Assembly: GCF_018977255.1 (NCBI RefSeq)
Contig: NW_024704742.1
Span: forward strand, 24,616,001-24,680,000
From: Callorhinchus milii
Lineage: Eukaryota
Length of the DNA stretch: 64,000 bases
Direction of reading: 5' to 3'
The position numbers were made by a program, and so were the translations under genes. Positions 531 to 41,504 of the stretch are shown one piece after another (the stretch's first letter is position 1; each line of letters starts with the position of its first letter). The notes under the pieces were generated by a model. The model did no database searches. It worked only from the letters and a program-made list of their open reading frames with translations, and was not told the origin of the DNA.

Positions 531-1487
531 TGTTGTTTTATCGATGGCTTCCAACAAAGCCAGCAATTTGAAGGTTTGCAATAACAAATGAAACATCTTG
601 TACACTAATGCAGTGATCACAAATTCAATCTGCTAGGTTTGAGCATTTCCCTATCTTCTCTAGGGTTGCTAGATTAGGAATCTCTGAGCTCACAGAGTGC
701 CTCTCACTCTGCCAGTAGGTAGTGATAGGTTCACCCCGGATGTTGCGCTCTGAAAATGGCCTCTTTCATTTGCCCTTACCAGCAGTGATAATACCAACAG
801 GAAGTGATGTTAGTTGTGGCCATTTTATCATAACAGTAGCCTAGTTGGTCCCCATGGTTCATGCTTATCTGCTCATGTGGCCCTGAAGGCCAAATGAGTT
901 TGCCAGTTAGGAGGTTGAATTTGAGGCACACCACAAGAGGGAACTTCCACACTGAACATTGGTGAGAAACATAGTTTGAAGTTAGTCAAGGTACTTGATT
1001 TTGCTTTGTAATATTGGTGCTGAAGGTTTATGCTTGCAATCATAACACAAACCACTGATCTATAAGCATCTCCGTAGAGGCCCTATTGGATTTGCAGTGT
1101 TTCTGGGGACCTCTACCGCCAGCTGTCAGTATCAGTCCTGTTCCCTTCCAAACTCAAGTGTACTGTATCACAGTGTTGGCACAATTACGCTTGTGCAGGC
1201 TTGTTGTGTGACTAATAGAGCACCCAATAAATGTGGTTTATTTCTATATGGCTGCACACTTAAATCTTCTCTACCAGTGGGGAAAGAGGATCTGCTTCGT
1301 GCCTTGTAATGGGCTAGATTGTACACAATAAAAGTAATGTAGGAGTACAAACATGTTTGCAACAAAATAAAATCATTCTGCCAAGCCCATCTTGAAAATT
1401 CTGCAGGCGAAAGACCCAACAGTTAAGATTGTATTTCATTTTCTGCTTTTATTGAATTTATTTCCCTCAATCCTTTATATTCTGTCT

Positions 1488-1495
1488 GTATATAC

Positions 1496-1526
<31 letters not shown>

Positions 1527-1527
1527 T
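1488..1527. repeat. (TA)n microsatellite
   Basis: Direct reading. Confidence 0.9.
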
Positions 1528-2356
1528 GGTCTGTCATCAGTAGTACTGCAGATTAACACCAGTTCCTATTTCCAAACACTGCTGCTACAGTTGCATAATT
1601 ATTTGAAACCCAGACAATATTTTCTCATCTATAAAGTACTGAAGATTTTGTTTACTGATGTGCTCAAACAAAGCAATCTCTTATTCAGATGCTGGAAATC
1701 AGATCAACTTAATACCACATGCACTGAAGGAAATCACCCGAGATTTTCGTATATGAATAAAGGCTGTGGCGTCATTTTGATTGAGCAGGACTCGCTGCTA
1801 GTGTTACCACTTCAACATCGCTAATACGGAAAACTTTACGTTAGCCAAGAGTACACTGAAGAACCAACAAGGCATCTAGTTAAAACCTGGCATTTTGGTG
1901 ACATTACTTCTTCAATCCCTCTTTTTTTTGTTCTGCCAAAATACTTGAATCCTTCGATTTAAAGCGTCACCCTTGAAAAAATTGGCAAACTATTTTTCTT
2001 ACCAATTTAGAAAGTAAAGTATTTAGAAAGCCAAAGCAATATATATGTATATACAGACAGAATATAAAGGATTGAGTGAAATAAATTCAATAAAAGCAGA
2101 AAATGAAATACGATCGTAACTGTTGGGTCTTTTCGTCTGCAGGACCAACAGGAACTGAGTGGAAAGAATGCCAACCTCCTGTGTGCCCACTTCAGGTCCC
2201 GTCAATAAGCCAGGCTGCCTGGTCTGTCGTCAGCATTACTGCAGATCAACACCAGTTCCTATTTCCAAACACTGCTGCTACAGTTGCATAATTATTTGAA
2301 ACCCAGACATATTTTCTCATCTACAAAGTACTGAAGATTTTTTTTACTGATATGCT

Positions 2357-3027
2357 CAAACAAACAAGCAAACAAACAAAATTACATTCGTATAATGCCT
2401 TTCATGTCGGGAGGACGTCTCAAGGCGCTAGACAATCAGCTTTTTGGAACCGAGCTGGGGGTCGGGATTAAAGGGATTGGGGGTGGGAGGGCAGGGGATG
2501 GTGGGCAGGGGTCTTGAGACGGATCATTGAGGCAAAAAGGGGCGATGCGGATGGACTGTGGGACAGAGTTACAGAGGACGGGGGCAGAGTGGCAAAAGGC
2601 CCGCCTGCCAATGGTGGGACAGACAAGGCGGGACGTGATGCAGGCCTGAGCCCGCTGAGCGGAGGGACTGTCTAGGTTGGTAGGGGGTTAGGAGGTTGCA
2701 GGGGTAGGGGGGAAGCAAAGCCATGCAGGGCTTTGAAAGTGAGAACCAGGATCTTGAATTGTATCCTCTGTGTGATGGGAAGTCAGTGTAGTTGGGCAAG
2801 GATGCGGGTGATAGGGTCGCGGAGCCTAGTGCGGGAGAGGACATGGGTTGTGGTGTGAGACAGTGGCAGAGCTGAGCGATGTTGTGGAGGTGGGGAAAGC
2901 GGAGCAGTCATGTCAGGGATGTGGGGTATGAAGGAGAGTTCAAGGTCCATGAAGGGAGATTCTGTCAGCGTCCGAGGGATGGCGATGCTGACGGCAGCCA
3001 AGAGGAGTGCCTCAGTCTTGTTGACAT
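2357..3027 (-). mobile_element. 5'-truncated L2 LINE inserted in the final codons of TLR2-A
   Basis: Begins with the (N)VNKTEALL segment, contains ELSFIPHI and LSRTRLRDPIT remnants, ends in the L2 tail gcgccttgagacgtcctcccgacatgaaagg...(ttgt)n. Confidence 0.9.
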
Positions 3028-5396
3028 CCTATGTTTTCCTCACCTTTTAATGCTACTTTTAAGTTAAACCAGAAGATTTTCTGTTCTACTTCATCCTCAG
3101 GCCATTCCAAATAGGTTTTTGTGTTCATCAGTTTCCTAAGCTTACAGAATCGCTGAGGAATGGTTTCCTTTGGGATTGGCTCCAACAGAACAAGAATGGC
3201 GGTGTCATTATTCTCATCAAACAGACGGAAATGAGAATAGTCCAGCTCGTACTTGCACCACTCGCTTTGGACAAAGTGTTGAGACAAGACAAACAGGGTC
3301 TTTCTGCTCTTCTCAATGGACTCAATGATGTTGTCAATTATCCACTTCCCTGGGATGAAATCGCGCTTATGAAGACAGAGTGTCACTGGTGGATGGGTAT
3401 TTTCTAATTCCCTCAGCAAGACGTTTTCCACCCACTCAGAATCCATCTCGCTGTAAGAAACAAATGCGTCGTAGAAAATATTATTATTCCTCACTTTCTT
3501 TGGCTTCCTTTTTGCCTGGAGCCACGCCCAGGTCATTTGGATGTACCAGATCCCGTGATACTTGTAGCACAATAGTCCCACAATAGCTATTGGCAAACAC
3601 AAAGCCACACACGACAAGGTGACAGAGAGTGTTGTGTGACAGTCAAAGAAAGAGCGCTTGGTATTTTTCACAATCATTCGCTTGACAACTAAAGGTGAAT
3701 CACAAATGTAGTTTTCCGGCCAGTTCAGCAGTTGTATTGAGTGGGTTAGGTATTTGTTTATATAGGTCAAGAATTCACAGGAACAGATGTAATGGTTCTT
3801 TCCAGCATCCAATGTTGTCAACTTATCGAATGTCGTGATTTCATCACTGGACATAGAGATGAGATTATTCCCACTGATCATCAGAATCTTCACGTTTGGT
3901 AGATAGCCACCGCCTGGTAAATACATCAGCTTGTTATTGGACACATTTAGTTCTCTGAGAGAAGGAAGGTGGGTAGTGAATGTCCTTATGTTATTGTTGC
4001 TTAAATCCAACACCTCGATATTTGGAGGGATGCACTGTGATATAGTACTTAATTGACTGCCTGAAAGGTTTAGAAATTGAAGAGTTTTTGACCATACACA
4101 AGAATCAACATCACTTAATGTATTCTGGCTTAAATCGAGGTGCGTCAGGTGGGTAATGTTAGATAAAATCGGGCTAATTTTCTTGAGAGAATGCAACTTA
4201 TTCTTTCTCAGAATAAGGTACATCAGGGAAGACCAGGAGTTCTCACAAACCATTTCTTTCATCATTAAATCAGTGAGCAAATTCTCCCTTAAATCAAGAT
4301 ACTCCAATCTTTGAAAATGTTGGGATATACCACATGGCATCATGAACAAGTTCAAGTTTGTCAACCTAGCTGTTCTAACATGGGATATCAAGCCATGAAG
4401 GAACGAAAGATCAAAAAATAAATAAAACTGTTTTATGGATATATGTCTGATTGTCAGTGAAATAAGTGATTCACATGTCATATCTTTAACTTTGTGCCAT
4501 TCTCCTCTTCCTGAAAATGCACAATTTTCTGCAACTAGTTCAGATATTCCACTGTCTCTTATATTTTTTAGTAAAACATATATTGTATTGTCACTCAGAG
4601 AACTATTTCTGAAGGTATATTTCTTCACTGATGAATTATTTGGCAATGAAAATAATTGAGTATCACTGGAACTCAGATATTCTAAGTCTCTCAGTTCAAC
4701 ATGGGTGGTGGCTGGTGCTAAATCCCAGATAATCCGTTGAACTAAGGACTGTTTTTTTTGGAATGGGTCATGTAAATTCATAGTGGCATGGCTTACATTT
4801 TGGAAAGAACTGAAACTTCTGTCTTCGTATGATTCTAATTTGTTTCCCAGTAAAATAAAGTCATCGAGATGTGAAATTCCTTCAAAGTCATCTTTCTTTA
4901 GATTAGACAAGAAAGCGTTTCCAACTTTTAACCACCGGAGGCTTTCCAGATGTGAGAAAAGTCTGCCTGGTCCCAGGTTTCTGTATTTATTCCCTGAAAG
5001 ATCCAGGTGTTGTAATTTGGAAAGATGCAGAAACCAAGCTGGTGAGAGTTGGATCAAGGAGTTATTGGACAAATCAAGGTATTCTAGGACCACGTTGCTC
5101 TTAAATGCCTGGTCATCAATAGACTGTATTTCATTTGATTGTAGCATAAGTACTTTGAGTTTAATATGCTTAGTGAGATCAGTTTCCTTGATGTGCGTTA
5201 TGAAGTTGTAGGAGAGGTTCAATCTTGAGACTTTCTCCAACACACGTGGAATAGTCACTAAGTTCATTGAAGAGCAGTTACAGAAGTTGCTGGAGTCACA
5301 TTTTTGACAGCTGTCTGCCTCTGAGCGAGCAATGTCCAGGTAAACACATGCAGCAGCAAGCAGCGTCCACACACTGACACCTCTCATGGTTCTCAT
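3012..5396 (-). CDS. TLR2: Toll-like receptor 2, paralogue A (794 aa, single coding exon; last residues CQQD* derive from an L2 LINE)
   Basis: Signal peptide, Cys-rich LRRNT, LxxLxLxxN repeats, TLR2-type QFYLFFDLS and FMMPC motifs, LRRCT, TM helix, TIR domain (YDAFVSYS, HKRDFIPGKW, SEWCKYELD, YLEWP). Acceptor tttcag|acacgtgtgaATG, exon starts at 5406. Confidence 0.96.
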   Translation of the reverse strand: MRTMRGVSVWTLLAAACVYLDIARSEADSCQKCDSSNFCNCSSMNLVTIPRVLEKVSRLNLSYNFITHIKETDLTKHIKLKVLMLQSNEIQSIDDQAFKSNVVLEYLDLSNNSLIQLSPAWFLHLSKLQHLDLSGNKYRNLGPGRLFSHLESLRWLKVGNAFLSNLKKDDFEGISHLDDFILLGNKLESYEDRSFSSFQNVSHATMNLHDPFQKKQSLVQRIIWDLAPATTHVELRDLEYLSSSDTQLFSLPNNSSVKKYTFRNSSLSDNTIYVLLKNIRDSGISELVAENCAFSGRGEWHKVKDMTCESLISLTIRHISIKQFYLFFDLSFLHGLISHVRTARLTNLNLFMMPCGISQHFQRLEYLDLRENLLTDLMMKEMVCENSWSSLMYLILRKNKLHSLKKISPILSNITHLTHLDLSQNTLSDVDSCVWSKTLQFLNLSGSQLSTISQCIPPNIEVLDLSNNNIRTFTTHLPSLRELNVSNNKLMYLPGGGYLPNVKILMISGNNLISMSSDEITTFDKLTTLDAGKNHYICSCEFLTYINKYLTHSIQLLNWPENYICDSPLVVKRMIVKNTKRSFFDCHTTLSVTLSCVALCLPIAIVGLLCYKYHGIWYIQMTWAWLQAKRKPKKVRNNNIFYDAFVSYSEMDSEWVENVLLRELENTHPPVTLCLHKRDFIPGKWIIDNIIESIEKSRKTLFVLSQHFVQSEWCKYELDYSHFRLFDENNDTAILVLLEPIPKETIPQRFCKLRKLMNTKTYLEWPEDEVEQKIFWFNLKVALKGEENIGCQQD

Positions 5397-5799
5397 TCAC
5401 ACGTGTCTGAAATAGAAATATAAAACATTTAATTGCAATTGACAACTGGGGTCATAGAAAGCAACACTGTTAGTGAACTCTTTCAGAGAATTAAATGCCC
5501 TTGCTTGGGTTGATCCTCTTCATAACTTTCACACATTAGAATGAAAAAAGCACCCTTTTGACCTCCTCTCATCTCCTTACCTGTATATATTCTCAGAACA
5601 ATCACCTCAGTTTGTGTTCCAAGGATCATGCTAATAAATTGCCAGTTAGTTTCTGGAATCGAACCTGACTCCCAAGTCTGGGGTAGAGTTGGTGGTATTC
5701 CTGTTTTGGTATCAAATCGGTGGCATGGCTTACATGATCCTCAACTGGATCAAATCAGCTCAGTAGCAAGTGCAAAAAGAATAGATGTCCTTAAGGTCA

Positions 5800-6008
5800 G
5801 TGGAGCACTGTAGCTCAGTGGTTAGAGCACTTGCCTCGCAAGCGAGAGAACCCGGTTTCGATTTCTGGACGGGTGAAAAGTTGGAAAAATTTCCTTTCCC
5901 GCACGTCTCTGTTTACCTAGTAGTAAAGTAGGACCCCGGTTGTTGGTCGATTGGCAAATCACTTTTCTGGGGGTAATAATTCTTCCAAAAAAAATTATAA
6001 TCATTTTG
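5800..6008 (+). mobile_element. tRNA-derived SINE, 5' half
   Basis: tgtagctcagtggttagagcacttgcctcgcaagcgagag head (A box, B-box-like) followed by SINE body. Confidence 0.8.
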
Positions 6009-6138
6009 TCACTCTTCTCCATGTTTGGACCGTGCTAGCAAGGTAATAGATGATAACTTGTGCCCATGTGGAACATCAGCCTGGTTCAGCTTGTGGTTCT
6101 CTTACTTTGCACTGACTATCTGTCTTGGTTAAACCTTC

Positions 6139-6620
6139 AGTCGCCAACCAGCGAGCGGAGGGATGGTCGCCAACCAGCGAGGGGCAGGGATGGTTGCCAG
6201 CCAGTGAGGGGCAGGGACGGTCGCCAGCCAGCAAGGGGCAGGTATAGTCGCTAGCCAGCGAGGGGCAGGTATAGTCGCTAGCCAGCGAGGGGCAGGTATA
6301 GTCGCTAGCCAGCGAGGGGCAGGTATAGTCGTTAGCCAGCGAGGGGCAGGTATAGTCGCTAGCCAGCGAGGGGCAGGGATGGTCGCCAGCCAACAAGGGG
6401 CAGGGATAGTTGCTAGCCAGCGAGGGCAGGGATGGTCGCCAGCCAGTGAGGGGCATGGATGGTCGCCAACCAGTGAGGGGCAGGGATAGTCGCTAGCCAG
6501 TGAGGGGCGGGGATGGTTGCCAGCCAGCAAGGGGCAGGGATGGTTACTAACTAGCGAGGGGCAGGGACGGTCGCCAACTAGCGAAGGGCAGGGACGGTCG
6601 CCAGCCAGCGAGGGGCAGGG
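6139..6620. repeat. GC-rich minisatellite, 27-bp unit (GGTATAGTCGCTAGCCAGCGAGGGGCA and variants), ~18 copies
   Basis: Direct reading; 9-aa periodicity in the overlapping ORFs. Confidence 0.93.
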
Positions 6621-7001
6621 CCTTGGAAACTCATGTAAACCGAGCGGGACTCACGGAAAGCAAGTCAGGCAGCGGCAGGGAGTCACAGGGCTGGTTTGGG
6701 ATCGGGACTGGAGGCAGCCAGAGGGAGGATCGGAGTCCTGGGGATCTGGACCGGCGTTAGCCAGAGGCAGGGTCTGGCTGGTAGCTGTAGTGGACCCTGA
6801 GGTGTGGCAGGTGCCTCGGGGATCGAGCGGCGGCCATTGCCTGGTAAGGGGGAGCCGCCATTTTGGACTTTCAGATTTTCCCACCATTCTGCATTATGTC
6901 ACTTTCGCCCGCCAGGTTTCAATCCCTGGTAGCAGCTACAGCATAGTTTATACCAGTGTCTCCCTCCCTCCCTTTGTCTGTCTCCCTCCCTCCCTCTCAT
7001 C

Positions 7002-7509: not shown

Positions 7510-10500
7510 TTGGCTGCCGCTTCCGACTCAAGCTGGCCCTCCCTCAAAATGTCCCACTCCCTGCAGCTCTCCCGCTCTGTCCTGCTATCTCTCCGCCCTC
7601 CCCGCCTTCTATCTCTGCTTGACCCCCCCCCCCCTCCCCACCCCACTGCCTCCCTCTGCTCCAGCCTGGGAATCCTCCGCCAGGCTCACCGTGGTACTCG
7701 GCGTTGGCACTGTCCAGCAGCAGCCACACCGACTGCCCATTCCCCACTGCCGTCGCAAGCCATCCCGGAGCCAGACCCCGGGGGCTAATCTTTTCTCCCT
7801 CATCCGCATCCGCACCCTCCCTGCCACTACCCCCTCCCATCCCACACATCCCCCTGCCAACTGTCCACTCCACAATGACCTTCAAAACGTCTGCTCCATC
7901 TGCAATAAGACCCTCGATGAGAACGTTGATATTATGGCCTTCACGGAAACCTGGATCACCCCAGGTGACAACTTCCCCCTCACCAAGGCCACACCACCTG
8001 GCCACACTTACCACCGTGCCCCACGCCCAACCGTCGTGGCAGTGGTGTGGCCCTCATATCCCGGGCGTCACTTGTCCTATCCCCCTACTCCACCGACTCA
8101 TTCCCCTCTTTTGAACACCTTACCCTCTGCTATCCTTCCCATCTCTCACTAAAAATCCTCCTCATTTACCGCCTCCCAAATCCTCCCCCACCTTCATCTC
8201 CACCCTCTTTGCTTCTTCCCTTTGCTCTGCTCCGACCGCCTCATCATCCTAAGTGACTTCAACCTCCATTTTACCCCCTCTTGCTCCAACTCCTCAGACT
8301 TCTCTGCTCTCCTCTCCTCTCTCAACCTTTCCCTCCACATCCACTTTGCTACACATGTTCATGGCCACCCGCTAGATCTGGCGATCACCCGGGGCCTCAG
8401 TGTCTCGGATGTCACCATCACCGACAAGGCCATTTCATCTCCCTCAACTCCCATATCTCTCTCCCCAATGGCTCCAAACCTACCACCATCTTCTACCGCC
8501 CCTGGAAGAAGATCTCCCCGCAATCCCTCTCCGCTGCCCTGGAGTCCTCTGATCTCCTCCCCCTCTGGCCCACCTCCCGCACCAACCCATCCTCTGCATT
8601 TACTCTCCTCCACAGCACCCTCTCCACCACACTCGATGCCCTTGCCCCCTAACCTCCCAAACTGCCTCCTATTCCTGATCCTCACCCTGGTTCACCAGTC
8701 ACCTCCGCTCGCTCAAGGGCCAGGTGTGGGCTGCCGACCACACTTAGCTCACATCCGGCCTAACGGTCCACCGCCACATCTGGCTGGACCTCACTAAGAC
8801 CTACTACTCCGCTCTCGCCTCAGCCAAATCATCCTTCTATTCCAGGTGAATCCTGGAGGCAAAGGGCAGCCCCAGGCTCCTGTTCTTCATCACCAACCAG
8901 CTCCTCCCCCCCCCCCCGCCATGCCTCGCAGATTCTTTCCTCTGACTCTCATTGCGAGGAAATGCTGAACTTCCTCGAGTCCAAAATCGAGGGAATCCGC
9001 TCAGCTGCCACTGCCCTCCCAACTTCCACTCCCTCACTACCCCCACCCCACACTCCAACAACTACCTACTCCTCCTTCCACACCTTTGAACCTGTCACTC
9101 CCTCCTCTATCATCACCACCATATCCTCCATGAAGCCCACCACCTGCTCCCTGGACCCCATCCCCATCCCTCTCCTTAAATCCCAGCTCCACCTCCTTGC
9201 ACCACTACTTGCCGACATCATCAACCTCTCTCTGTCATCTGTCCTACCCCCTCAAAACAGGCACTATCACCCCCACCTTGAAGAAACTTTTACTTGACCC
9301 AACACAACTATCTAGCTACCGACCCATCTCTAACCTCCCTTTTCTGTCCAAGGTCCTTCAGAGAGCTATTGCCTCCCAGCTTTGCTCCTTTCTCTCCTTC
9401 CACTCCCTCCATGAACCCTTCCAATCGGGATTCTGTGCTGCCCACAGAATGGAAACTGCTCTGGTCAAGGTCACAAACGACATCCTGACCTTGTATGACC
9501 AGGGCTCCCTCTGCCTCCTCCCACCTCAACCTCCAAGATTCTTGGCTTGACTGGTTCAGGTCCTACCTTTCACACCGCCTCCATTTCATCTCAGCTAACG
9601 GCTTCTCCTCCAGCCCCCACACCACCTTGTGCGATGTTCCTCAGGGCTCTGTCCTTGCTCCCCTCCTCTTCAACCTCTACATGCTCCCCCTTGGTGACCT
9701 CGGCAGACATGGGGTAAATTTCCATATGTATGTGGATGATACCCAGCTCTACCTCTCTGCCTCCACCCTGAACTCCAGGACTACTGGTGTCCTGACATCA
9801 AGTCCTGGAAGAGGGACAACTTTCTCCAGCTGAACGTCAGCAAGACTGAGGCCCTCATGATTGGCTTGCGCCAGCGCTTCCACACCTCAGTTGCTGGCAG
9901 CATCAGCCTCCACAGCTGCACACTCAACCTCACTAAGCCAGTCAGGAACCTCGGTATCTTGTTTGACCCTGAACTGTCCTTTCTCCCCCACATCCACGCC
10001 ATGACCGGCACTGCCTACCACCACATCCGCAACATTGCCAGACTCCACCACTGCCTCATCCCTCAGGCTGCCGAAGCCCTCACCCACGCATTCGTCACCT
10101 CAAGACTCATTTATGGAAATTACCTCCTCATCGGCCTTTCCAACTTTTCACTTCCCCTGCAGGTCATCCAAAGCTCATGTACCCTTGCACACCAGGCTTC
10201 GTGACCCCATCATTCCCACCCGCGCCAGACTCCACTGGCTACCCAGCCCTCAGAGGATCGAATTCAAGATCCTCGTCCTCACTTTCAAGGCCATCCATGG
10301 CCTTGCCCCCTCCTACCTCTCTGACTTGCTGACTCCCTACCAACCTGCCCACTCCCTCCTTTCAAAGGGCTCCGGCCTGCTCCATGTCTCCCGCCCGACC
10401 CACCCTACCATCAGTGGCCGGGCTTTCAGTCTCTCTGCCCCCACGCTCAAGAACTCCATCCCACGGTCCCTTCGCCTCGCTTCCTCCCTTGCCTCCTTGA

Positions 10501-12275: not shown

Positions 12276-14243
12276 CCTCACATCCTCAAATATCCTATCC
12301 CTCTGGCCTTCCACCCACAGAGATTCTGAAGCAGCCATCCAGCTGCTCCATGATCGCCTCTCCTCCACCTTCAACTCACTTGTTCCTCTCAAATCCAGGA
12401 CCAGCTCCAAACCCACCCGATCCCCCTGATATAACAATCGTTTCCACTGCCTAAAAACCCAAACCCGGCTGCTCGAGCGCAGATGGCAGAAAACTGGCCT
12501 GACAGTTCACCACCAACTGTGGCTCGGGCATCTCCACAGCTACCGCCGTTCTTTGACACGCGCAAAAACGGCCTTCTACTCCAACTTCATCTTGGAGGCT
12601 AAACACAACCCTAAAATCCTTTTTTCCATCAGCCACTACCTCTCCATGCCCCCCTCAGGCCTTCTCAATCTTCACATCTAATGCCAAGTGCGAGGAGGTC
12701 ATGAACTTCTTTTCAACCAAAATACTTAACAACAACAACAACTTGGATTTATATAGCGCCCTCCACGCCAGATAACGTCTCATCCGCCAGGCAGCCTCAT
12801 CTGTCTGCCTCTTGTCACCCACCACCTATCCGTCCCCCTCACCCCTCACCCTTCCCATCATCAGCTCTTACCACGAACCCCATCCTACATTCCTTCCTCC
12901 CATCTCTCCTTCCTCCCTCTCACCCACCATCACTTCAATGAAACCCACCACCTGCTGCCTCAACCCACTCCCACCAACTTGCTGGTCACCCAGCTCCCCT
13001 TCTTCTGCCCACTACTGGCTAACATCATCAACTAGTCCCTCTCCTCCGGATCAGTCCCTGCCCCCCCTCAAAACTGCTGTCATCACTCCCCTCCTCAAAA
13101 AAACTCTCGCTAGATCCCTCAAACCCCAGCCACTACCGTCCTATTTCAAACTTGCCCTTCCTTGCAAAAGTCCTAGAATGCGTTGTTACCAATCAACTCC
13201 GCGCACACCTCTCCTCCCACTCCCTCTTCGAACCCCTCCAGTCCGGTTTCCGCCCTGCCCACGGTACAGAGACTGTGCTTGTGAAAGTCTCAAATGACAT
13301 CCTCTCTATCTGTGACCAGGGATCCCTCTGCCTCCTTATCCTCCTGGACCTCTCCGCCGCGATCGACACAGTCGATCATGCCATCCTCCTCCACCACCTT
13401 TCCTCCGTCATCCACCTCAGTGGGACCACACTCGCCTGGTCCAATTCCTACCTCATGAACCGCCAGCAGTATATCTGCACAGATGGCTTTTCCTCCCGCT
13501 CTCACCCGGTTACCTGCGGGGTACCCCAAGGATCCATCCTTGGCTCACTCCTCTTCCTAATCTATATGCTCCCTCTTGGGGATGTCATCCGCAGACATGG
13601 GGTACACTTCCACATGTATGCGGATGACACCCAACTCTATTTTTCCACCTTTTGCGACCCCCAGTACCCTGATGTTCTGTCAGCCTGCCTGTCAGACATC
13701 AGGAGCTGCCGTGATGAGGGCGAATTTCCTTCAGCTAAATGTTGACAAGACGGAAGCCATACTCTTTGGCTTATCTGCACCAAACTCCGCTCCCCGATAA
13801 CCCCAGTCCTTGCCAGGCTGCACTGGCTGCCTGTCCCAGAGAGGATCGACTTCAAGATCCTCACTCTTGTCTTCAAATCCCTCCACTCCTCTGCATCCCC
13901 CCTACCTCTCTGACCTCCTCCCTCCTCAAAACGGTGCTCGTTGGCTTCACTCCATGGGGTCTGGCCTCTCCTTGTCTCTTGAATTCTCCGCTTCACCATC
14001 GGCAGCTGTGACTTCAGCCACTACACCCTGAGACTCTGGAACTTGCTTCCTCATTCCCTTTGCCTCGCTCCCTTTATTTCTATTTTCAGGTTTCGACTGA
14101 AGATCTTTCTTTTTGACCGCGCCTTTGGTCACCTTCTTCCCCCTCCCCCTGGCTCGGCCCTGGGATCCGTTACTGTGAAGCGCTCTGAGACGCCCTCCGG
14201 TTTGGAGAGTGCTATATAAATCCAAGTTGTTGTTGTTGTTGTT
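12276..14243 (+). mobile_element. L2 LINE (second family), 5'-truncated and internally deleted, with an antisense L2-tail insert at ~12730-12782
   Basis: LQSGFRPAHGTET, LDLSAA.DTVDH, GVPQGS, YADDTQLY; tail gctatataaatccaa(gtt)n. Confidence 0.92.
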
Positions 14244-25213: not shown

Positions 25214-26322
25214 GACCACAACCCTACCTGAGAGAGATTCTTAAATTAGTCCAGAGTCTTAGCTTCAACCACCTTTGGTAACCAGTTCGAGTCATCGATT
25301 GCCCCTTGTGTAAACAAATACTTCCTGAGTTCCGTGTCAGAATTGCTATAATAATAATACCTCCACAAGTATGTGGAGTCCTGTAGCTTAGTGGTTAGAG
25401 CTCTTGCCTCACAAGTGAGAGACCTGGGTTCGATTCTCGGAAGGATGAAATGTTGAGCAAGTTTCCTTACTGCACACGCCTCTGTTTACGCAGCAGTAAG
25501 TAATAATAATAATAATAATGATCCTTAAATTTGATATAGCCCTTTCCATTTCTTCTAGACGTCTCAAAGCGCTTCACAGAATATGCTGTAAAGTGAATTG
25601 ACTGTATATTTGTGGGCAAAACACGGCAGCCAATGGCGCACAGCAGTGTCCCACAAACAGTCATGGATTGAAAATGACCAATTTATTATTGTTTTGTTTT
25701 GGAGGGATTATTATTAGGCGTGTGGAGTAAGGAAACTTGCCCAAGGTTTTGCTCTGCCTGGAATTTAACCCAGGTGTCCCGGGATCCGTTACTGTAAAGC
25801 GCTCTAAGACGCCGTCCGGCATGGAGGGCGCTATATAAATCCAAGTTGTTGTTGTGGTTGTTGTTGTTGCTTGCAAGGCGAGTGCTCAAACCACTGAGCT
25901 GCAGAACTCCTCTACAGAACAGCTACAGTCAATTCACTCTACAATATATTCTGTGAAGCGCTTTGAGATGTCTAGAAGAAATGGAAAGCGCTATATCAAA
26001 TTTAAGGATCATTATTATTATTATTATTATTATTACTTACTGCTGCGTAAACAGAGGCGTGTGCAGTAAGGAAACTTGCTCAACATTTCATCCTTCCGAG
26101 AATCGAACCCAGGTCTCTCACTTGTGAGGCAAGAGCTCTAACCACTAAGCTACAGGACTCCACATACTTGTGGAGGTATTATTATTATAGCAATTCTGAC
26201 ACGGAACTCAGGAAGTATTTGTTTACACAAGGGGCAATCGATGACTCGAACTGGTTACCCAAGGTGGTTGAAGCTAAGACTCTGGACTAATTTAAGAATC
26301 TCTCTCAGGTAGGGTTGTGGTC
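25214..26322. repeat. Inverted duplication, arms 25214-25606 and 25924-26322
   Basis: Reverse-complement match of ~395 bp including non-repeat-looking sequence and two SINE halves. Confidence 0.95.
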
Positions 26323-38640: not shown

Positions 38641-38810
38641 CGGGGGAGGGTTTTGCGTAATGAGTGGCTGCTCTGGGACAACCAACGATATGTGCCATGA
38701 TAAGCTTTGAAATGGCATCCTGATGTGAAAGGCATGATAACAAATATAAGCATTATTATTATTTGTAGGAAAATAAAAGCAATATTTTCTTTTATTTCAG
38801 ACACGTGTGA

Positions 38811-41192
38811 ATGAGAACCATGAGAGGTGTCAGTGTGTGGACGCTGCTTGCTGCTGCATGTGTTTACCTGGACATTGCTCGCTCAGAGGCAGACACCTGT
38901 CAAAGATGTGACTCCAGCAACTTCTGTAACTGCTCTTCAATGAACTTAGTGACTATTCCACGTGTGTTGGAGAAAGTCTCAAGATTGAACCTCTCCTACA
39001 ACTTCATAACGCACATCAAGGAAACTGATCTCACTAAGCATATTAAACTCAAAGTACTTATGCTACAATCAAATGAAATACAGTCTATTGATGACCAGGC
39101 ATTTAAGAGCAACGTGGTCCTAGAATACCTTGATTTGTCCAATAACTCCTTGATCCAACTCTCACCAGCTTGGTTTCTGCATCTTTCCAAATTACAACAC
39201 CTGGATCTTTCAGGGAATAAATACAGAAACCTGGGACCAGGCAGACTTTTCTCACATCTGGAAAGCCTCCGGTGGTTAAAAGTTGGAAACGCTTTCTTGT
39301 CTAATCTAAAGAAAGATGACTTTGAAGGAATTTCACATCTCGATGACTTTATTTTACTGGGAAACAAATTGGAATCATACGAGGACAGAAGTTTCAGTTC
39401 TTTCCAAAATGTAAGCCATGCCACTATGAATTTACATGACCCATTCCAAAAAAACCAGACCTTAGCTCAACGGATTATCTGGGATTTAGCACCAGCCACC
39501 ACCCATGTTGAACTGAGAGACTTAGAATATCTGAGTTCCAGTGATACTCAATTATTTTCATTGCCAAATAATTCATCAGTGAAGAAATATACCTTCAGAA
39601 ATAGTTCTCTGAGTGACAGTACAATATATGTTTTACTAAAAAATGGAAGAAACAGTGGAATATCTGAACTAGTTGCAGAAAATTGTGCATTTTCAGGAAG
39701 AGGAGAATGGCACAAAGTTAAAAATATGACATGTGAATCACTTATTTCACTGACAATCAGACATATATCCATAAAACAGTTTTATTTATTTTTTGATCTT
39801 TCGTTCCTTCATGGCTTGATATCCCATGTTAGAACAGCTAGGTTGACAAACTTGAACTTGTTCATGATGCCATGTGGTGTATCCAAAAGTTTTCAAAGAT
39901 TGGAGTATCTTGATTTAAGGGAGAATTTGCTCACTGATTTAATGATGAAAGAAATGGTTTGTGAGAACTCCTGGTCTTCTCTGACGTACCTTATTCTGAG
40001 AAAGAATAAGTTGCATTCTCTCAAGAAAATTAGCCCGATTTTATCTAACATTACCCACCTGATGCACCTCGATTTAAGCCAGAATACATTAAGTGATGTT
40101 GATTTTTGTGTATGGTCAAAAACTCTTCAATTTCTAAACCTTTCAGGCAGTCAATTAAGTACTATATCACAGTGCATCCCTCCAAATATCGAGGTGTTGG
40201 ATTTAAGCAACAATAACATAAGGACATTCACTACCCACCTTCCTTCTCTCAGAGAACTAAATGTGTCCAATAACAAGCTGATGTATTTACCAGGCGGTGG
40301 CTATCTACCAAACGTGAAGATTCTGATGATCAGTGGGAATAATCTCATCTCTATGTCCAGTGATGAAATCACGACATTCGATAAGTTGACAACATTGGAT
40401 GCTGGAAAGAACCATTACATCTGTTCCTGTGAATTCTTGACCTATATAAACAAATACCTAACCCACTCAATACAACTGCTGAACTGGCCGGAAAACTACA
40501 TTTGTGATTCACCTTTAGTTGTCAAGCGAATGATTGTGAAAAATACCAAGCGCTCTTTCTTTGACTGTCACACAACACTCTCTGTCACCTTGTCGTGTGT
40601 GGCTTTGTGTTTGCCAATAGCTATTGTGGGACTATTGTGCTACAAGTATCACGGGATCTGGTACATCCAAATGACCTGGGCGTGGCTCCAGGCAAAAAGG
40701 AAGCCAAAGAAAGTGAGGAATAATAATATTTTCTACGACGCATTTGTTTCTTACAGCGAGATGGATTCTGAGTGGGTGGAAAACTTCCTGCTGAGGGAAT
40801 TAGAAAATACCCATCCACCACTGATACTCTGTCTTCATAAGCGCGATTTCATCCCAGGGAAGTGGATAATTGACAACATCATTGAGTCCATTGAGAAGAG
40901 CAGAAAGACCCTGTTTGTCTTGTCTCAACACTTTGTCCAAAGCGAGTGGTGCAAGTACGAGCTGGACTATTCTCATTTCCGTCTGTTTGATGAGAATAAT
41001 GACACCGCCATTCTTGTTCTGTTGGAGCCAATCCCAAAGGAAACCATTCCTCAGCGATTCTGTAAGCTTAGGAAACTGATGAACACAAAAACCTATTTGG
41101 AATGGCCTGAGGATGAAGTAGAACAGCAAATCTTCTGGTTTAACTTAAAAGTAGCATTAAAAGGTGAGGAAAACATAAGAGGACATCAGTAA
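38811..41192 (+). CDS. TLR2: Toll-like receptor 2, paralogue B (793 aa, single coding exon)
   Basis: Same architecture and ~97% aa identity to copy A; acceptor tttcag|acacgtgtgaATG at 38800/38801; tail-to-tail with RNF175 as for human TLR2. Confidence 0.97.
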   Translation: MRTMRGVSVWTLLAAACVYLDIARSEADTCQRCDSSNFCNCSSMNLVTIPRVLEKVSRLNLSYNFITHIKETDLTKHIKLKVLMLQSNEIQSIDDQAFKSNVVLEYLDLSNNSLIQLSPAWFLHLSKLQHLDLSGNKYRNLGPGRLFSHLESLRWLKVGNAFLSNLKKDDFEGISHLDDFILLGNKLESYEDRSFSSFQNVSHATMNLHDPFQKNQTLAQRIIWDLAPATTHVELRDLEYLSSSDTQLFSLPNNSSVKKYTFRNSSLSDSTIYVLLKNGRNSGISELVAENCAFSGRGEWHKVKNMTCESLISLTIRHISIKQFYLFFDLSFLHGLISHVRTARLTNLNLFMMPCGVSKSFQRLEYLDLRENLLTDLMMKEMVCENSWSSLTYLILRKNKLHSLKKISPILSNITHLMHLDLSQNTLSDVDFCVWSKTLQFLNLSGSQLSTISQCIPPNIEVLDLSNNNIRTFTTHLPSLRELNVSNNKLMYLPGGGYLPNVKILMISGNNLISMSSDEITTFDKLTTLDAGKNHYICSCEFLTYINKYLTHSIQLLNWPENYICDSPLVVKRMIVKNTKRSFFDCHTTLSVTLSCVALCLPIAIVGLLCYKYHGIWYIQMTWAWLQAKRKPKKVRNNNIFYDAFVSYSEMDSEWVENFLLRELENTHPPLILCLHKRDFIPGKWIIDNIIESIEKSRKTLFVLSQHFVQSEWCKYELDYSHFRLFDENNDTAILVLLEPIPKETIPQRFCKLRKLMNTKTYLEWPEDEVEQQIFWFNLKVALKGEENIRGHQ

Positions 41193-41504
41193 AAAAAAAT
41201 CTTCAGTACTTCGGAGATGAGAAAAGACGTCTGGGTTTCAAATAATTTTGCAAGTGTGTCCATAGTGTTTGGAAATAGGAACTGGAGTGAATTTAAATGA
41301 ATGTTGCATGAGGTACACCTCTATCACACATTGTTATAAACTCACCTGAGTTCCTAATATTCAGTCCCGTGGATTGGTATTAATGATAAGAAGGCATGAA
41401 ACAAGAAATAACTATTTGAACCTTTAGGACCGCTGCCTCCTGAGACCAGGAACAACATCTCATCACTCTCTCTACCTGTTTCATCTGTTTATGGTCAATT
41501 CTGC

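What the first reader, a model, noticed from the sequence alone, without database searches (positions are those of the whole stretch)
2344..3030. An L2 LINE supplies the C-terminus and stop codon of TLR2-A
Seen: A ends AAC ATA GG|A TGT CAA CAA GAC TGA; ATGTCAACAAGACTGAGGCACTCCTC is the L2 ORF2 (N)VNKTEALL segment (compare 9834-9860) read in another frame. Beyond the ~670-bp L2, the minus strand resumes AGCATATCAGTAAAAAAAATCTTCAGTAC, homologous to B's GGACATCAGTAAAAAAAAATCTTCAGTAC. Removing the L2 gives ATA GGA GCA TAT CAG TAA (IGAYQ*), the same length as B's IRGHQ*. The ancestral stop is stranded at 2344-2346 and A gained GCQQD* with a new Cys. The insertion also sits where A/B near-identity ends, so it may bound conversion (inference).
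Basis: seen in the sequence. Interest (0 to 1): 0.75.

Follow-up and report, generated by a model that had tools for sequence, protein, structure and literature searches.

The report
L2 LINE ends a TLR2 paralogue
In one of two near-identical TLR2 immune-receptor genes of a chimaera-type fish, an old jumping-gene fragment landed three codons before the stop, so the last four amino acids and the stop codon now come from that fragment; this is real and transcribed but probably harmless.

Summary
TLR2-A (3012-5396, minus strand, 794 aa) and TLR2-B (38811-41192, plus strand, 793 aa) are 98.9% identical from 10 nt upstream of the coding exon's splice acceptor to codon 789. At that point A carries a 5'-truncated, sense-oriented L2-like LINE fragment of about 670 bp (about 3026-2358) with a (TTTG)n tail. 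LINE homology starts at 3025-3027, so it covers TGT CAA CAA GAC TGA (3026-3012).

Past the fragment, A resumes homology to B's last codons, stop and 3'UTR at 87% identity. This gives a same-length empty-site reconstruction. B is the empty site, and that flank sequence occurs nowhere else in the genome.

A spliced RNA contig with A-type letters at the diagnostic sites listed reads 180 nt across the CDS/L2 junction. Two independent database protein models also end in GCQQD.

New findings:
- The stranded stop occurs twice (2344-2346 and 1652-1654), because a later 693-bp duplication copied part of the L2 tail.
- The TGA lies on a CpG-to-TpG site of the LINE.
- A's 5'UTR exon lies in an antisense L2.

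The changed residues lie beyond the folded TIR domain, in a tail that varies between species, so the change is probably neutral. That the L2 bounds gene conversion is plausible but not proven. Ordinary kind, well documented case.

The parts
3012..5396 (-). TLR2-A open reading frame, 794 aa, single coding exon, ends ...KGEENIGCQQD*
   Evidence: ORF list. Pfam LRR families plus TIR at residues 642-768. Best named relatives are shark and ray TLR2 at about 62% identity. Identical to database protein P0001.
3012..3026 (-). LINE-derived codons TGT CAA CAA GAC (C791 Q792 Q793 D794) and the TGA stop. In the LINE's own frame this is (N)VNKTEALL.
   Evidence: Alignment to 5 other copies and to L018. Own-genome matches start at 3027. 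blastn to other copies starts at 3025-3024.
2358..3026 (-). 5'-truncated, decayed L2-like (CR1-group) LINE fragment in the same orientation as TLR2-A. Boundaries are good to about 2 nt. Target-site duplication is 0-2 nt.
   Evidence: tblastn with an intact ORF2 C-terminus from the window gives 64% identity over 50 aa, then continues in two other frames, combined E = 3e-19, with one in-frame stop. About 17% diverged from a crude consensus of 7 copies.
2358..2385 (-). (TTTG)n-type 3' tail of the LINE
   Evidence: Sequence. Six other copies in the window match up to insert position 667-671 of 672. Read laying skipped 2353-2385 as a repeat.
2843..2849 (-). Site where the window's L2 lacks about 118 nt that other copies carry between short direct repeats. 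The RNA contigs of X1 and X2 leave the window sequence here.
   Evidence: Alignment A2. Loose ends at 2842, 2846 and 2849. The 30 letters shown match another L2 exactly, at G000:C2:21630323-21630352.
2220..2357 (-). U1: stranded ancestral end of TLR2-A (GCA TAT CAG TAA, stop at 2346-2344) plus about 100 nt of the old 3'UTR
   Evidence: 86.9% identity to B 41179-41285. K2P distance to B is 0.137. This sequence occurs only 3 times in the genome: B, U1 and U2.
1527..1676 (-). U2: second copy of U1 including about 12 nt of the LINE tail (GCA CAT CAG TAA, stop at 1654-1652). Together with U1 it forms a 693-bp direct duplication made after the LINE insertion.
   Evidence: 94% identity over 150 nt to 2220-2367. 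K2P U1-U2 is 0.054. 84.3% identity to B.
38811..41192 (+). TLR2-B open reading frame, 793 aa, ends ...KGEENIRGHQ*. It serves as the empty site for the insertion (41178-41192).
   Evidence: The X5 contig (record 18) joins the B coding sequence to the B 3'UTR.
5407..5408 (-). Splice acceptor AG of the coding exon. The A/B identity block starts 10 nt upstream, at 5418.
   Evidence: Sequence ...tatttctatttcAG|acacg. Contigs of X1, X2 and X5 end at 5408, while the probable DNA run X9 goes on.
13906..14045 (-). 5'UTR exon of TLR2-A seen in the X1 contig. Only 30 letters were shown (13908-13937); the far end is set by the 140-nt loose length. The donor is AG|GTAGGG at 13906|13905. The exon lies inside an antisense L2.
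   Evidence: tblastn places L2 ORF2 C-terminus residues 123-244 at 13779-14147 on the plus strand, E = 2.7e-19.

Best explanation
After the TLR2 gene was duplicated into a head-to-head pair, a 5'-truncated L2-like (CR1-group) LINE copy retrotransposed into TLR2-A in sense orientation. It landed between codon 790 and the last three codons, and it made essentially no target-site duplication. Read in the TLR2 frame, the LINE's 'VNKTE' stretch gives Cys-Gln-Gln-Asp and then TGA. A therefore changed from ...IGA(H/Y)Q* (793 aa, as in B) to ...IGCQQD* (794 aa). The old last codons, stop and 3'UTR were pushed about 670 nt downstream.

Shown here: the structure, the LINE homology over the stop, the empty-site paralogue, a spliced A-type RNA contig reading through the junction, and presence in independent data sets.

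Inferred:
(a) The insertion is old. It predates a local duplication whose copies now differ by 5%.
(b) The protein change is neutral or nearly so. It lies 6 residues beyond the last residue that aligns to the solved TLR2 TIR structure, in a tail that varies freely among cartilaginous fishes.
(c) Gene conversion keeps the coding exons nearly identical, and since the insertion it can no longer reach the 3' flank. That flank has diverged to 13-16%.
For: - Structure.
- Repeat nature and extent. ORF2 C-terminus similarity with frameshifts and one stop. A sister copy has an RVT_1 reverse-transcriptase domain (E = 1e-21).
- Empty site: the ungapped 18-nt alignment to B, and the flank found only at B, U1 and U2 in a 991-Mb genome. 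Only two TLR2 copies exist; the next paralogue is at most 36% identical.
- RNA: X1 record 7 spans 2849..5408 with 7 other letters, 6 of them listed. It shows no B-type letter at the 13 diagnostic A/B sites listed in table 3. The other 12 of the 25 are not listed for any run, and 4 rows were not shown.
- Splicing: the X1 contig's 5' end maps to 13908-13937 with GT-AG boundaries.
- Independent records: named database proteins XP_007902229.1 and A0A4W3I464 differ from the window's A at 2 residues in the shared part and also end in GCQQD. A0A4W3HWJ4 ends in IRGHQ.
- Order of events: U2 carries about 12 nt of the LINE tail. K2P distances are U1-U2 0.054 and U-B 0.137-0.163.
- Conversion: dS between A and B is 0.008 against 0.14-0.16 in the flank. 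Differences are clustered, with a largest gap of 680 nt (P = 0.004).
- Neutrality: human TLR2 TIR (1fyw) aligns to A residues 638-784 and the chain ends one residue later. The 13 shark and ray TLR2 tails differ in length and sequence.
Against: - The fragment itself matches no Pfam family (the related ORF2 C-terminus gave 0 families) and no Rfam family. The L2-versus-CR1 label was not tested against a repeat library.
- The fragment is 17% from a crude consensus of 7 copies. That is more than half the U-B flank distance (7-8%), so either the consensus is of the wrong subfamily or the flank evolves slowly. The dating is loose.
- The runs are recorded only as 'RNA?'. Contigs cannot give strand, 3' end or level, and there is no protein evidence.
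- The X1 and X2 contigs leave the window sequence at 2849. The 30 letters shown there are identical to another L2 locus, so part of those contigs could be chimeric. Against that, the 180 nt on the L2 side match the window at 178 of 180, while that other locus matches this part at only about 85%.
- The X2 bridging contig has B-type letters at 3080-3422, which contig collapsing could explain.
- dN/dS between A and B is about 1.4, which cannot separate relaxed from diversifying selection on A.
Confidence: 0.85

Rival explanations
1. The insertion matters for regulation. By stopping conversion at the stop codon and replacing the short 3'UTR with a long, LINE-rich one, and with a 5'UTR exon that also lies in an antisense L2, it gave TLR2-A its own post-transcriptional or transcriptional control. 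That helped the pair to subfunctionalise.
For: Identity falls from 98.9% to 87% exactly at the insert. The first canonical AATAAA downstream of A's stop is at 1462, about 1.5 kb away, whereas B has an AATAAA about 315 nt after its stop (read from the sequence). X1 contigs cover most of 1-2843. The 5'UTR exon lies inside an antisense L2. In X5 the bridging contig is B-type, while in X1 it is A-type.
Against: No measure of expression level, tissue or 3' end is possible from contigs. The flank homology is only about 110 nt, so conversion tracts would end near there with or without the LINE. The 5' edge of the identity block is equally sharp. B's 5' exon was not found, so promoter differences are unknown.
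Confidence: 0.12
2. TLR2-A is a decaying or redundant copy. The LINE hit is one step in pseudogenisation, and the transcript is tolerated noise.
For: 20 of 24 coding differences between A and B are non-synonymous, with dN/dS about 1.4. The LINE, a later 693-bp duplication and an inverted repeat have all accumulated right behind the gene.
Against: The 794-codon frame is intact although the insertion predates a duplication that is now 5% diverged. It is spliced and transcribed. Ongoing conversion with B would keep repairing it. The same frame is present in a second, allelic record.
Confidence: 0.08
3. The LINE was already present before the duplication and B lost it by a precise deletion, or the arrangement is an assembly artefact.
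For: None found. It was considered because the fragment's 17% divergence from the consensus exceeds half of the flank divergence.
Against: B aligns to A's two flanks without any gap or leftover LINE bases, and precise loss of a LINE is rare (established knowledge). The junction is seen in RNA contigs of two runs and in protein models from another record.
Confidence: 0.03

Closest known systems
Transposable-element fragments contributing coding sequence or stop codons to host genes (TE-derived C-termini; a general phenomenon, recalled from the literature rather than from a paper read here)
   Same: A retroelement fragment read out of its own frame supplies a few terminal residues and the stop. 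The host reading frame otherwise stays intact and the transcript persists.
   Different: Most described cases arise by exonisation of intronic elements through new splice sites. Here the LINE inserted directly into the last codons of a single coding exon, and a near-identical paralogue in the same window preserves the empty site.
Gene conversion between duplicated TLR2 genes in birds (TLR2A/TLR2B), PMC3125219 (passages read)
   Same: Two neighbouring single-exon TLR2 copies are kept alike by conversion while parts of the ectodomain differ.
   Different: A different lineage and an independent duplication. Here the pair is head-to-head and 33 kb apart, identity covers the whole exon (98.9%), and the 3' edge coincides with a LINE insertion.
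TLR2 duplicates in cartilaginous fishes, bioRxiv 10.64898/2026.03.23.713620 (section 10 read)
   Same: TLR2 is reported as duplicated in most sharks, with 99-100% identical tandem copies in squaliform sharks.
   Different: The passages and section read do not mention a LINE-derived C-terminus, conversion boundaries or the chimaera pair. Its supplements could not be seen.
5'-truncated CR1-group/L2 LINE insertions made by target-primed reverse transcription
   Same: An intact 3' end with a short tandem-repeat tail instead of poly(A), 5' truncation, thousands of copies in the genome, and a minimal target-site duplication.
   Different: Nothing unusual about the element itself. It carries an internal deletion of about 118 nt between direct repeats, and another copy (L006) shows a similar but independent deletion.

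Membership tests
CR1-group / L2-like LINE (non-LTR retrotransposon) | Similarity to the ORF2 of autonomous copies | tested here: met
   tblastn with an intact 253-aa ORF2 C-terminus from the window gives 64% identity over 50 aa and continues in two shifted frames, E = 3e-19. The nucleotide alignment covers the 5' end.
CR1-group / L2-like LINE (non-LTR retrotransposon) | Reverse transcriptase in sister copies of the family | tested here: met
   The window ORF 13152-13742 matches Pfam RVT_1, E = 1e-21. The same copy continues into the ORF2 C-terminus at 13779-14147.
CR1-group / L2-like LINE (non-LTR retrotransposon) | Dispersed, high copy number with a shared 3' end and a short tandem-repeat tail rather than poly(A) | tested here: met
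   12,496 first-look candidates, 40 scored, 66 matching pieces. 30 further matches in the window, 6 of which reach position 667-671 of 672.
CR1-group / L2-like LINE (non-LTR retrotransposon) | Placement in the L2 clade rather than CR1 or other clades by reverse-transcriptase phylogeny or a curated consensus | not testable with these tools
   No Repbase or Dfam library is on hand. The L2 label comes from the recalled look of the ORF2 C-terminal motif. PMC13343379 (passages read) notes that CR1 and L2 labels are often confused.
CR1-group / L2-like LINE (non-LTR retrotransposon) | A known structured LINE 3' element | tested here: not met
   No Rfam family matches window 2200-3100 at E up to 1.
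TLR2 (TLR1 subfamily) | LRR ectodomain, a transmembrane segment and a C-terminal TIR domain, with TLR2 as best relatives | tested here: met
   Pfam LRR_8, LRR_4 and TIR at 642-768. The top named hits are TLR2 of sharks and rays at 55-62% identity. PDB TLR2 TIR matches at E = 2e-77. The transmembrane segment was read by eye only.
TE-derived coding end | TE homology covers the terminal codons and the stop, and mature RNA contains them contiguous with the coding sequence | tested here: met
   for homology. (X1 record 7, X2 record 10) together for a spliced RNA contig.
TE-derived coding end | The protein with the TE-derived tail is made | not testable with these tools
   No proteomic data are available.
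Interlocus gene conversion between paralogues | Synonymous divergence far below that of flanking non-coding homology, with a mosaic distribution of differences | tested here: met
   dS is 0.008 against a flank K2P of 0.137-0.163. The largest difference-free stretch is 680 nt, P = 0.004 in 100,000 permutations.
Interlocus gene conversion between paralogues | Paralogues cluster within a species while the duplication is shared with other species | not testable with these tools
   No other holocephalan TLR2 appears among the 120 best of 1642 hits.

The most novel reading that the evidence does not exclude
Both ends of the TLR2-A mRNA are built from L2 elements: a 5'UTR exon and splice donor in an antisense L2, and the last codons, stop and 3'UTR in a sense L2. 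The 3' insertion acts as a heterology barrier that has shut the 3' flank out of an otherwise continuing conversion with TLR2-B. The LINEs would then have given one member of a concertedly evolving immune-receptor pair its own regulatory identity. The flank divergence (K about 0.14-0.16) would date the insertion rather than the duplication. A remoter variant is that the new C-terminal Cys sits four residues from the end (C-Q-Q-D), the spacing of a prenylation box. The box rule is recalled, and the residues are poor for it.
Probability: 0.12. Interest if true: 0.5.

Novelty: new member of a known kind. Interest (0 to 1): 0.28.

Why it matters
This is a clean natural example of a LINE landing inside the last codons of an intact, expressed innate-immune receptor gene without destroying it. 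The empty site is preserved 36 kb away in a paralogue that is otherwise kept 98.9% identical. That makes it a useful teaching and annotation case: the deposited protein models ending in GCQQD are correct, and their ends are TE-derived. It is also a possible natural marker for where conversion tracts between TLR2 copies stop. It does not change what is known about TLR2 function. The altered residues lie outside the TIR fold, in a tail that varies freely between species.

Tried and rejected
- The look-up of sequencing runs: no RNA holder is listed on record. All runs are 'RNA?' or '?', so RNA status had to be argued from a splice junction.
- Parts without cover in read laying: X1, X2 and X5 have no depth at 6319-7000, X1 has none at 6085-7000, and there are gaps in X2 and X5 downstream of the LINE. 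None of this was used as evidence.
- X2's bridging contig carries B-type letters at 3080, 3382, 3386, 3419 and 3422 next to the L2. It is tempting to read this as a conversion tract ending at the LINE. I rejected that because contigs collapse A/B bubbles; the probable DNA run X9 shows a similar mosaic.
- The X1 joint 2247->1555 ('goes back 693') could mean a third U copy. It is explained equally well by the 62-nt exact repeat.
- The long form of the L2 in X1 and X2 is unresolved between a real indel allele and a chimera. The 30 letters shown equal another locus exactly, yet the opposite loose ends (2842, 2846) are not identical to that locus.
- A search for A/B homology upstream of the exon found only dispersed repeats. 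B's 5' exon was not found.
- Rfam on 2200-3100 gave nothing. ARAGORN on 5500-6100 gave nothing. Pfam on the ORF2 C-terminus and on two other LINE ORFs gave nothing.
- The search of earlier findings had no notes for this genome.
- The second loose-end 30-mer is absent from the window.
- The literature searches and the passages read turned up no mention of this insertion.
Full report
**Setting.** The window is G000:C1:24616001-24680000 of a 991.5-Mb genome. It holds two long ORFs of the TLR2 type in head-to-head orientation. TLR2-A is at 3012-5396 on the minus strand (794 aa). TLR2-B is at 38811-41192 on the plus strand (793 aa). Pfam finds LRR families and a TIR domain at 642-768. The best named relatives are shark and ray TLR2 at only 55-62% identity. 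The proteins at 90% identity or more that carry names are Callorhinchus milii TLR2, so the genome is that of this chimaera or a very close relative. Only these two TLR2 copies exist in the genome; the next TLR1-family gene is at most 36% identical.

**The observation.** A ends ...AAC ATA GGA TGT CAA CAA GAC TGA (stop at 3014-3012), and B ends ...AAC ATA AGA GGA CAT CAG TAA. blastn aligns A 5418..3030 with B 38790..41177 at 98.9% over 2389 columns. It then aligns A 2357..2252 with B 41179..41285 at 86.9% over 107 columns. So 672 bp (3029-2358) are present in A only. The fall in identity across them is far beyond chance: 25 of 2388 versus 14 of 107 differences, p = 1.9e-10.

**What the insert is.**
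- It is a dispersed repeat. There are 30 further matches inside the window. In the whole genome the first look gave 12,496 candidates, of which 40 were scored, giving 66 matching pieces at 70-85% identity.
- On the minus strand it ends in a (TTTG)n tail, a 3' end shared with other copies. Six window copies match up to position 667-671 of 672.
- An intact 253-aa ORF from another copy in the window (33422-32664) aligns to it at 64% over 50 aa. The alignment then continues in the two other frames (combined E = 3e-19) and contains one in-frame stop. The insert is therefore a decayed copy.
- A sister copy carries a reverse-transcriptase domain (RVT_1, E = 1e-21) that continues into the same C-terminal region.
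- The fragment is therefore a 5'-truncated non-LTR retrotransposon of the CR1 group, in the same orientation as TLR2-A.
- Calling it 'L2' rests on the recalled look of the ORF2 C-terminus. No repeat library was available, Rfam gave no match, and the literature warns that CR1 and L2 labels are unstable (PMC13343379, passages).

**Does the LINE cover the stop?** Yes.
- Own-genome copies match from query position 174 of window:2200-3200:-, which is window 3027.
- blastn to other copies starts at 3025-3024.
- In a multiple alignment the family reads ...TTGAACGTCAACAAGAC(C/T)GAGGC..., against A's ...ATAGGATGTCAACAAGACTGAGGC.
- So GGA (G790) is TLR2-derived, or ambiguous in its last base. TGT CAA CAA GAC TGA (3026-3012) is LINE sequence read one base out of the LINE's own N-V-N-K-T-E frame.
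- The T of the TGA sits on a CpG of the family. Of 6 other copies compared, 4 have C (ACC GAG) and 2 have T.
- The stop was therefore either inherited from a T-bearing source or made by CpG decay after insertion. In the second case the first post-insertion frame would have run 23 codons further, to the next TGA (frame 0). Either way the LINE supplies the stop.

**The empty site.** Removing 3027-2357 gives ATA GGA GCA TAT CAG TAA, against B's ATA AGA GGA CAT CAG TAA. The two have the same length, with 3 mismatches in 18 and at most 0-2 nt of target duplication. The 3' flank sequence is not a repeat. In the whole genome it occurs only at B and at two places behind A. B is thus an internal empty-site control. 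The insertion replaced three codons (A, H or Y, Q) and TAA with four codons (C, Q, Q, D) and TGA.

**Transcripts.** The evidence comes from what the contigs show.
- X1 record 7 (2773 nt) and X2 record 10 (2620 nt) each match the window continuously from 5408 to 2849. They cross 3029/3030 with 180 nt on the LINE side, and only 2 letters there differ from the window.
- The closest other LINE copy found matches this part at about 85%.
- At 5408 the X1 contig continues with 140 letters unlike the window. The 30 letters shown occur once in the window, at 13908-13937. There the minus strand reads ...CAGAG|GTAGGG, and 5408-5407 is the AG of ...TATTTCTATTTCAG.
- This is a canonical GT-AG intron of 8.5 kb, so the contig is a spliced RNA.
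- It shows no B-type letter at the 13 of the 25 A/B diagnostic sites that table 3 lists. Of its 7 differences from the window, the 6 listed lie at non-diagnostic positions.
- Contigs of X2 and X5, from two studies, also stop at 5408, while the probable DNA run X9 goes on. By the tool's own standard this is only a weak hint.
- No joint leaves the coding exon near its end in X1 or X2. The one apparent 'skip' of the LINE (X5 record 18) is a B transcript. It has 11 other letters in 94 nt of flank, and its loose end is B's own 3'UTR.
- Independently, two named database models that differ from the window's A at two residues in the shared part (T415I, A733T) end in GCQQD, and a third ends in IRGHQ.

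**Later history behind the gene.**
- The stranded end exists twice. U1 (2367-2220, TAA at 2346-2344) and U2 (1676-1527, TAA at 1654-1652) are 94% identical over 150 nt, and the homology includes about 12 nt of the LINE tail. A direct duplication with a 693-bp period therefore happened after the insertion.
- U2 keeps CAT (His), as in B, where U1 has TAT. The pre-insertion tail was probably IGAHQ.
- K2P distances are 0.054 (U1-U2) and 0.137-0.163 (U-B). The insertion is therefore old, not a recent polymorphism.
- The fragment is about 17% from a leave-one-out consensus of 7 copies, which are themselves 8.5-12% from it. This is an upper bound on its age and sits awkwardly with the flank distance.
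- The window's fragment also lacks about 118 nt that other copies carry between short direct repeats.
- At exactly that point the X1 and X2 contigs continue with LINE sequence that the window lacks. The 30 letters shown are identical to another L2 on contig C2. Whether this is a longer allele or a chimeric contig is open. It lies 160 nt downstream of the stop and does not affect the coding claim.

**Gene conversion.**
- Across the 789 shared codons there are 24 substitutions, 20 non-synonymous and 4 synonymous. dN is 0.0113 and dS is 0.0081.
- Synonymous divergence is about 17 times lower than flank divergence.
- The differences are clustered, with a 680-nt stretch free of them (P = 0.004).
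- Homology starts only 10 nt upstream of the acceptor, and nothing further upstream aligns apart from dispersed repeats.
- This is the pattern of concerted evolution known for avian TLR2A/TLR2B (PMC3125219, passages). It also matches the near-identical TLR2 duplicates reported in sharks (bioRxiv 10.64898/2026.03.23.713620, section 10).
- The 3' edge of near-identity coincides with the LINE to within 50 nt; the last difference is at 3080.
- A simple reading is that the whole block was homogenised until the LINE cut off its last 120 nt or so, which then diverged. This is inference. The flank is short enough that tracts would end nearby anyway.

**Function.**
- The solved human TLR2 TIR domain (1fyw) aligns to A residues 638-784, and that chain ends one residue later.
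- The tail at 785-794 (GEENIGCQQD) lies outside the fold.
- Among 13 shark and ray TLR2 proteins, the tails after the last helix differ in length and sequence, and one protein ends almost at the helix.
- Swapping AHQ for CQQD is therefore most likely neutral.
- The larger effect may be on the mRNA. The first canonical AATAAA after A's stop is about 1.5 kb downstream, at 1462, whereas B has one about 315 nt after its stop (sequence). X1 contigs cover most of 1-2843. Contigs cannot show 3' ends or levels.

**Verdict.** The finding is real and correctly interpreted. In kind it is ordinary: a TE fragment contributing terminal codons and a stop. It is unusually well documented, because the paralogue preserves the empty site. 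Interest is modest.

Noticed in passing
window 1401-2367: Behind TLR2-A there is a 693-bp-period direct duplication (U1 2220-2367, U2 1527-1676, 94% identical). There is also a 95% inverted repeat (2042-2142 versus 1401-1503) next to a (TA)n run at about 1500-1528. An X1 contig joins 2247 back to 1555, which hints at copy-number variation or a graph loop.
   Followed up: partly
window 2843-2849; L018 1501-1619 (G000:C2): The window's L2 lacks about 118 nt flanked by short direct repeats, and another copy (L006) has a similar independent deletion. The X1 and X2 contigs carry LINE sequence at this point. The 30 letters shown equal another L2 on contig C2 exactly, although that copy is only 82-85% identical elsewhere.
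   Followed up: partly
window 13906-14045 (minus strand): The 5'UTR exon of TLR2-A seen in the X1 contig, with its GT donor, lies wholly inside the ORF2 C-terminal part of an L2 on the opposite strand (13779-14147). The intron to the coding exon is 8.5 kb. Only 30 of the 140 letters were shown.
   Followed up: partly
window 3012-3014: The TGA stop of TLR2-A sits on a site that is CpG in 4 of 6 other L2 copies (ACC GAG) and TpG in 2 of 6. The stop may therefore have arisen by CpG decay, before or after insertion.
   Followed up: yes
window 5617-5850: A very high-copy element about 200 nt upstream of the coding exon, inside the intron. Word depth is about 25,000 in the probable DNA run and about 4,000 in X1. 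ARAGORN finds no tRNA there. It is probably a SINE and was not classified.
   Followed up: partly
window 38703-38749: An L2-like 3' end lies about 40 nt upstream of where A/B identity begins on the B side (local score 30 against a maximum of 24 in 300 shuffles). A second LINE insertion may therefore mark the 5' edge of the identity block.
   Followed up: partly
window 25214-25606 and 25924-26322: A pair of 399-bp inverted repeats, 97% identical and about 320 bp apart, in the 33-kb LINE-rich spacer between the two TLR2 genes.
   Followed up: no
TLR2-A/B codons 29-432 and 659-672: 20 of the 24 coding differences between the paralogues change the amino acid. They cluster in the LRR ectodomain and at the start of the TIR region, and codons 433-658 are identical.
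   Followed up: partly
proteins P0003, P0005, P0006, P0009, P0013, P0014: Several shark and ray TLR2 proteins end in S/T-x-L (GSL, ASL, TTL, TSL, TDL, TVL). This resembles a class I PDZ-binding end (motif rule recalled). Neither copy in this window has it.
   Followed up: no
TLR2-A residues 791-794: The LINE-derived Cys lies exactly four residues from the C-terminus (C-Q-Q-D), the spacing of a prenylation box (rule recalled). The residues are poor for such a box, and it is most likely meaningless.
   Followed up: no
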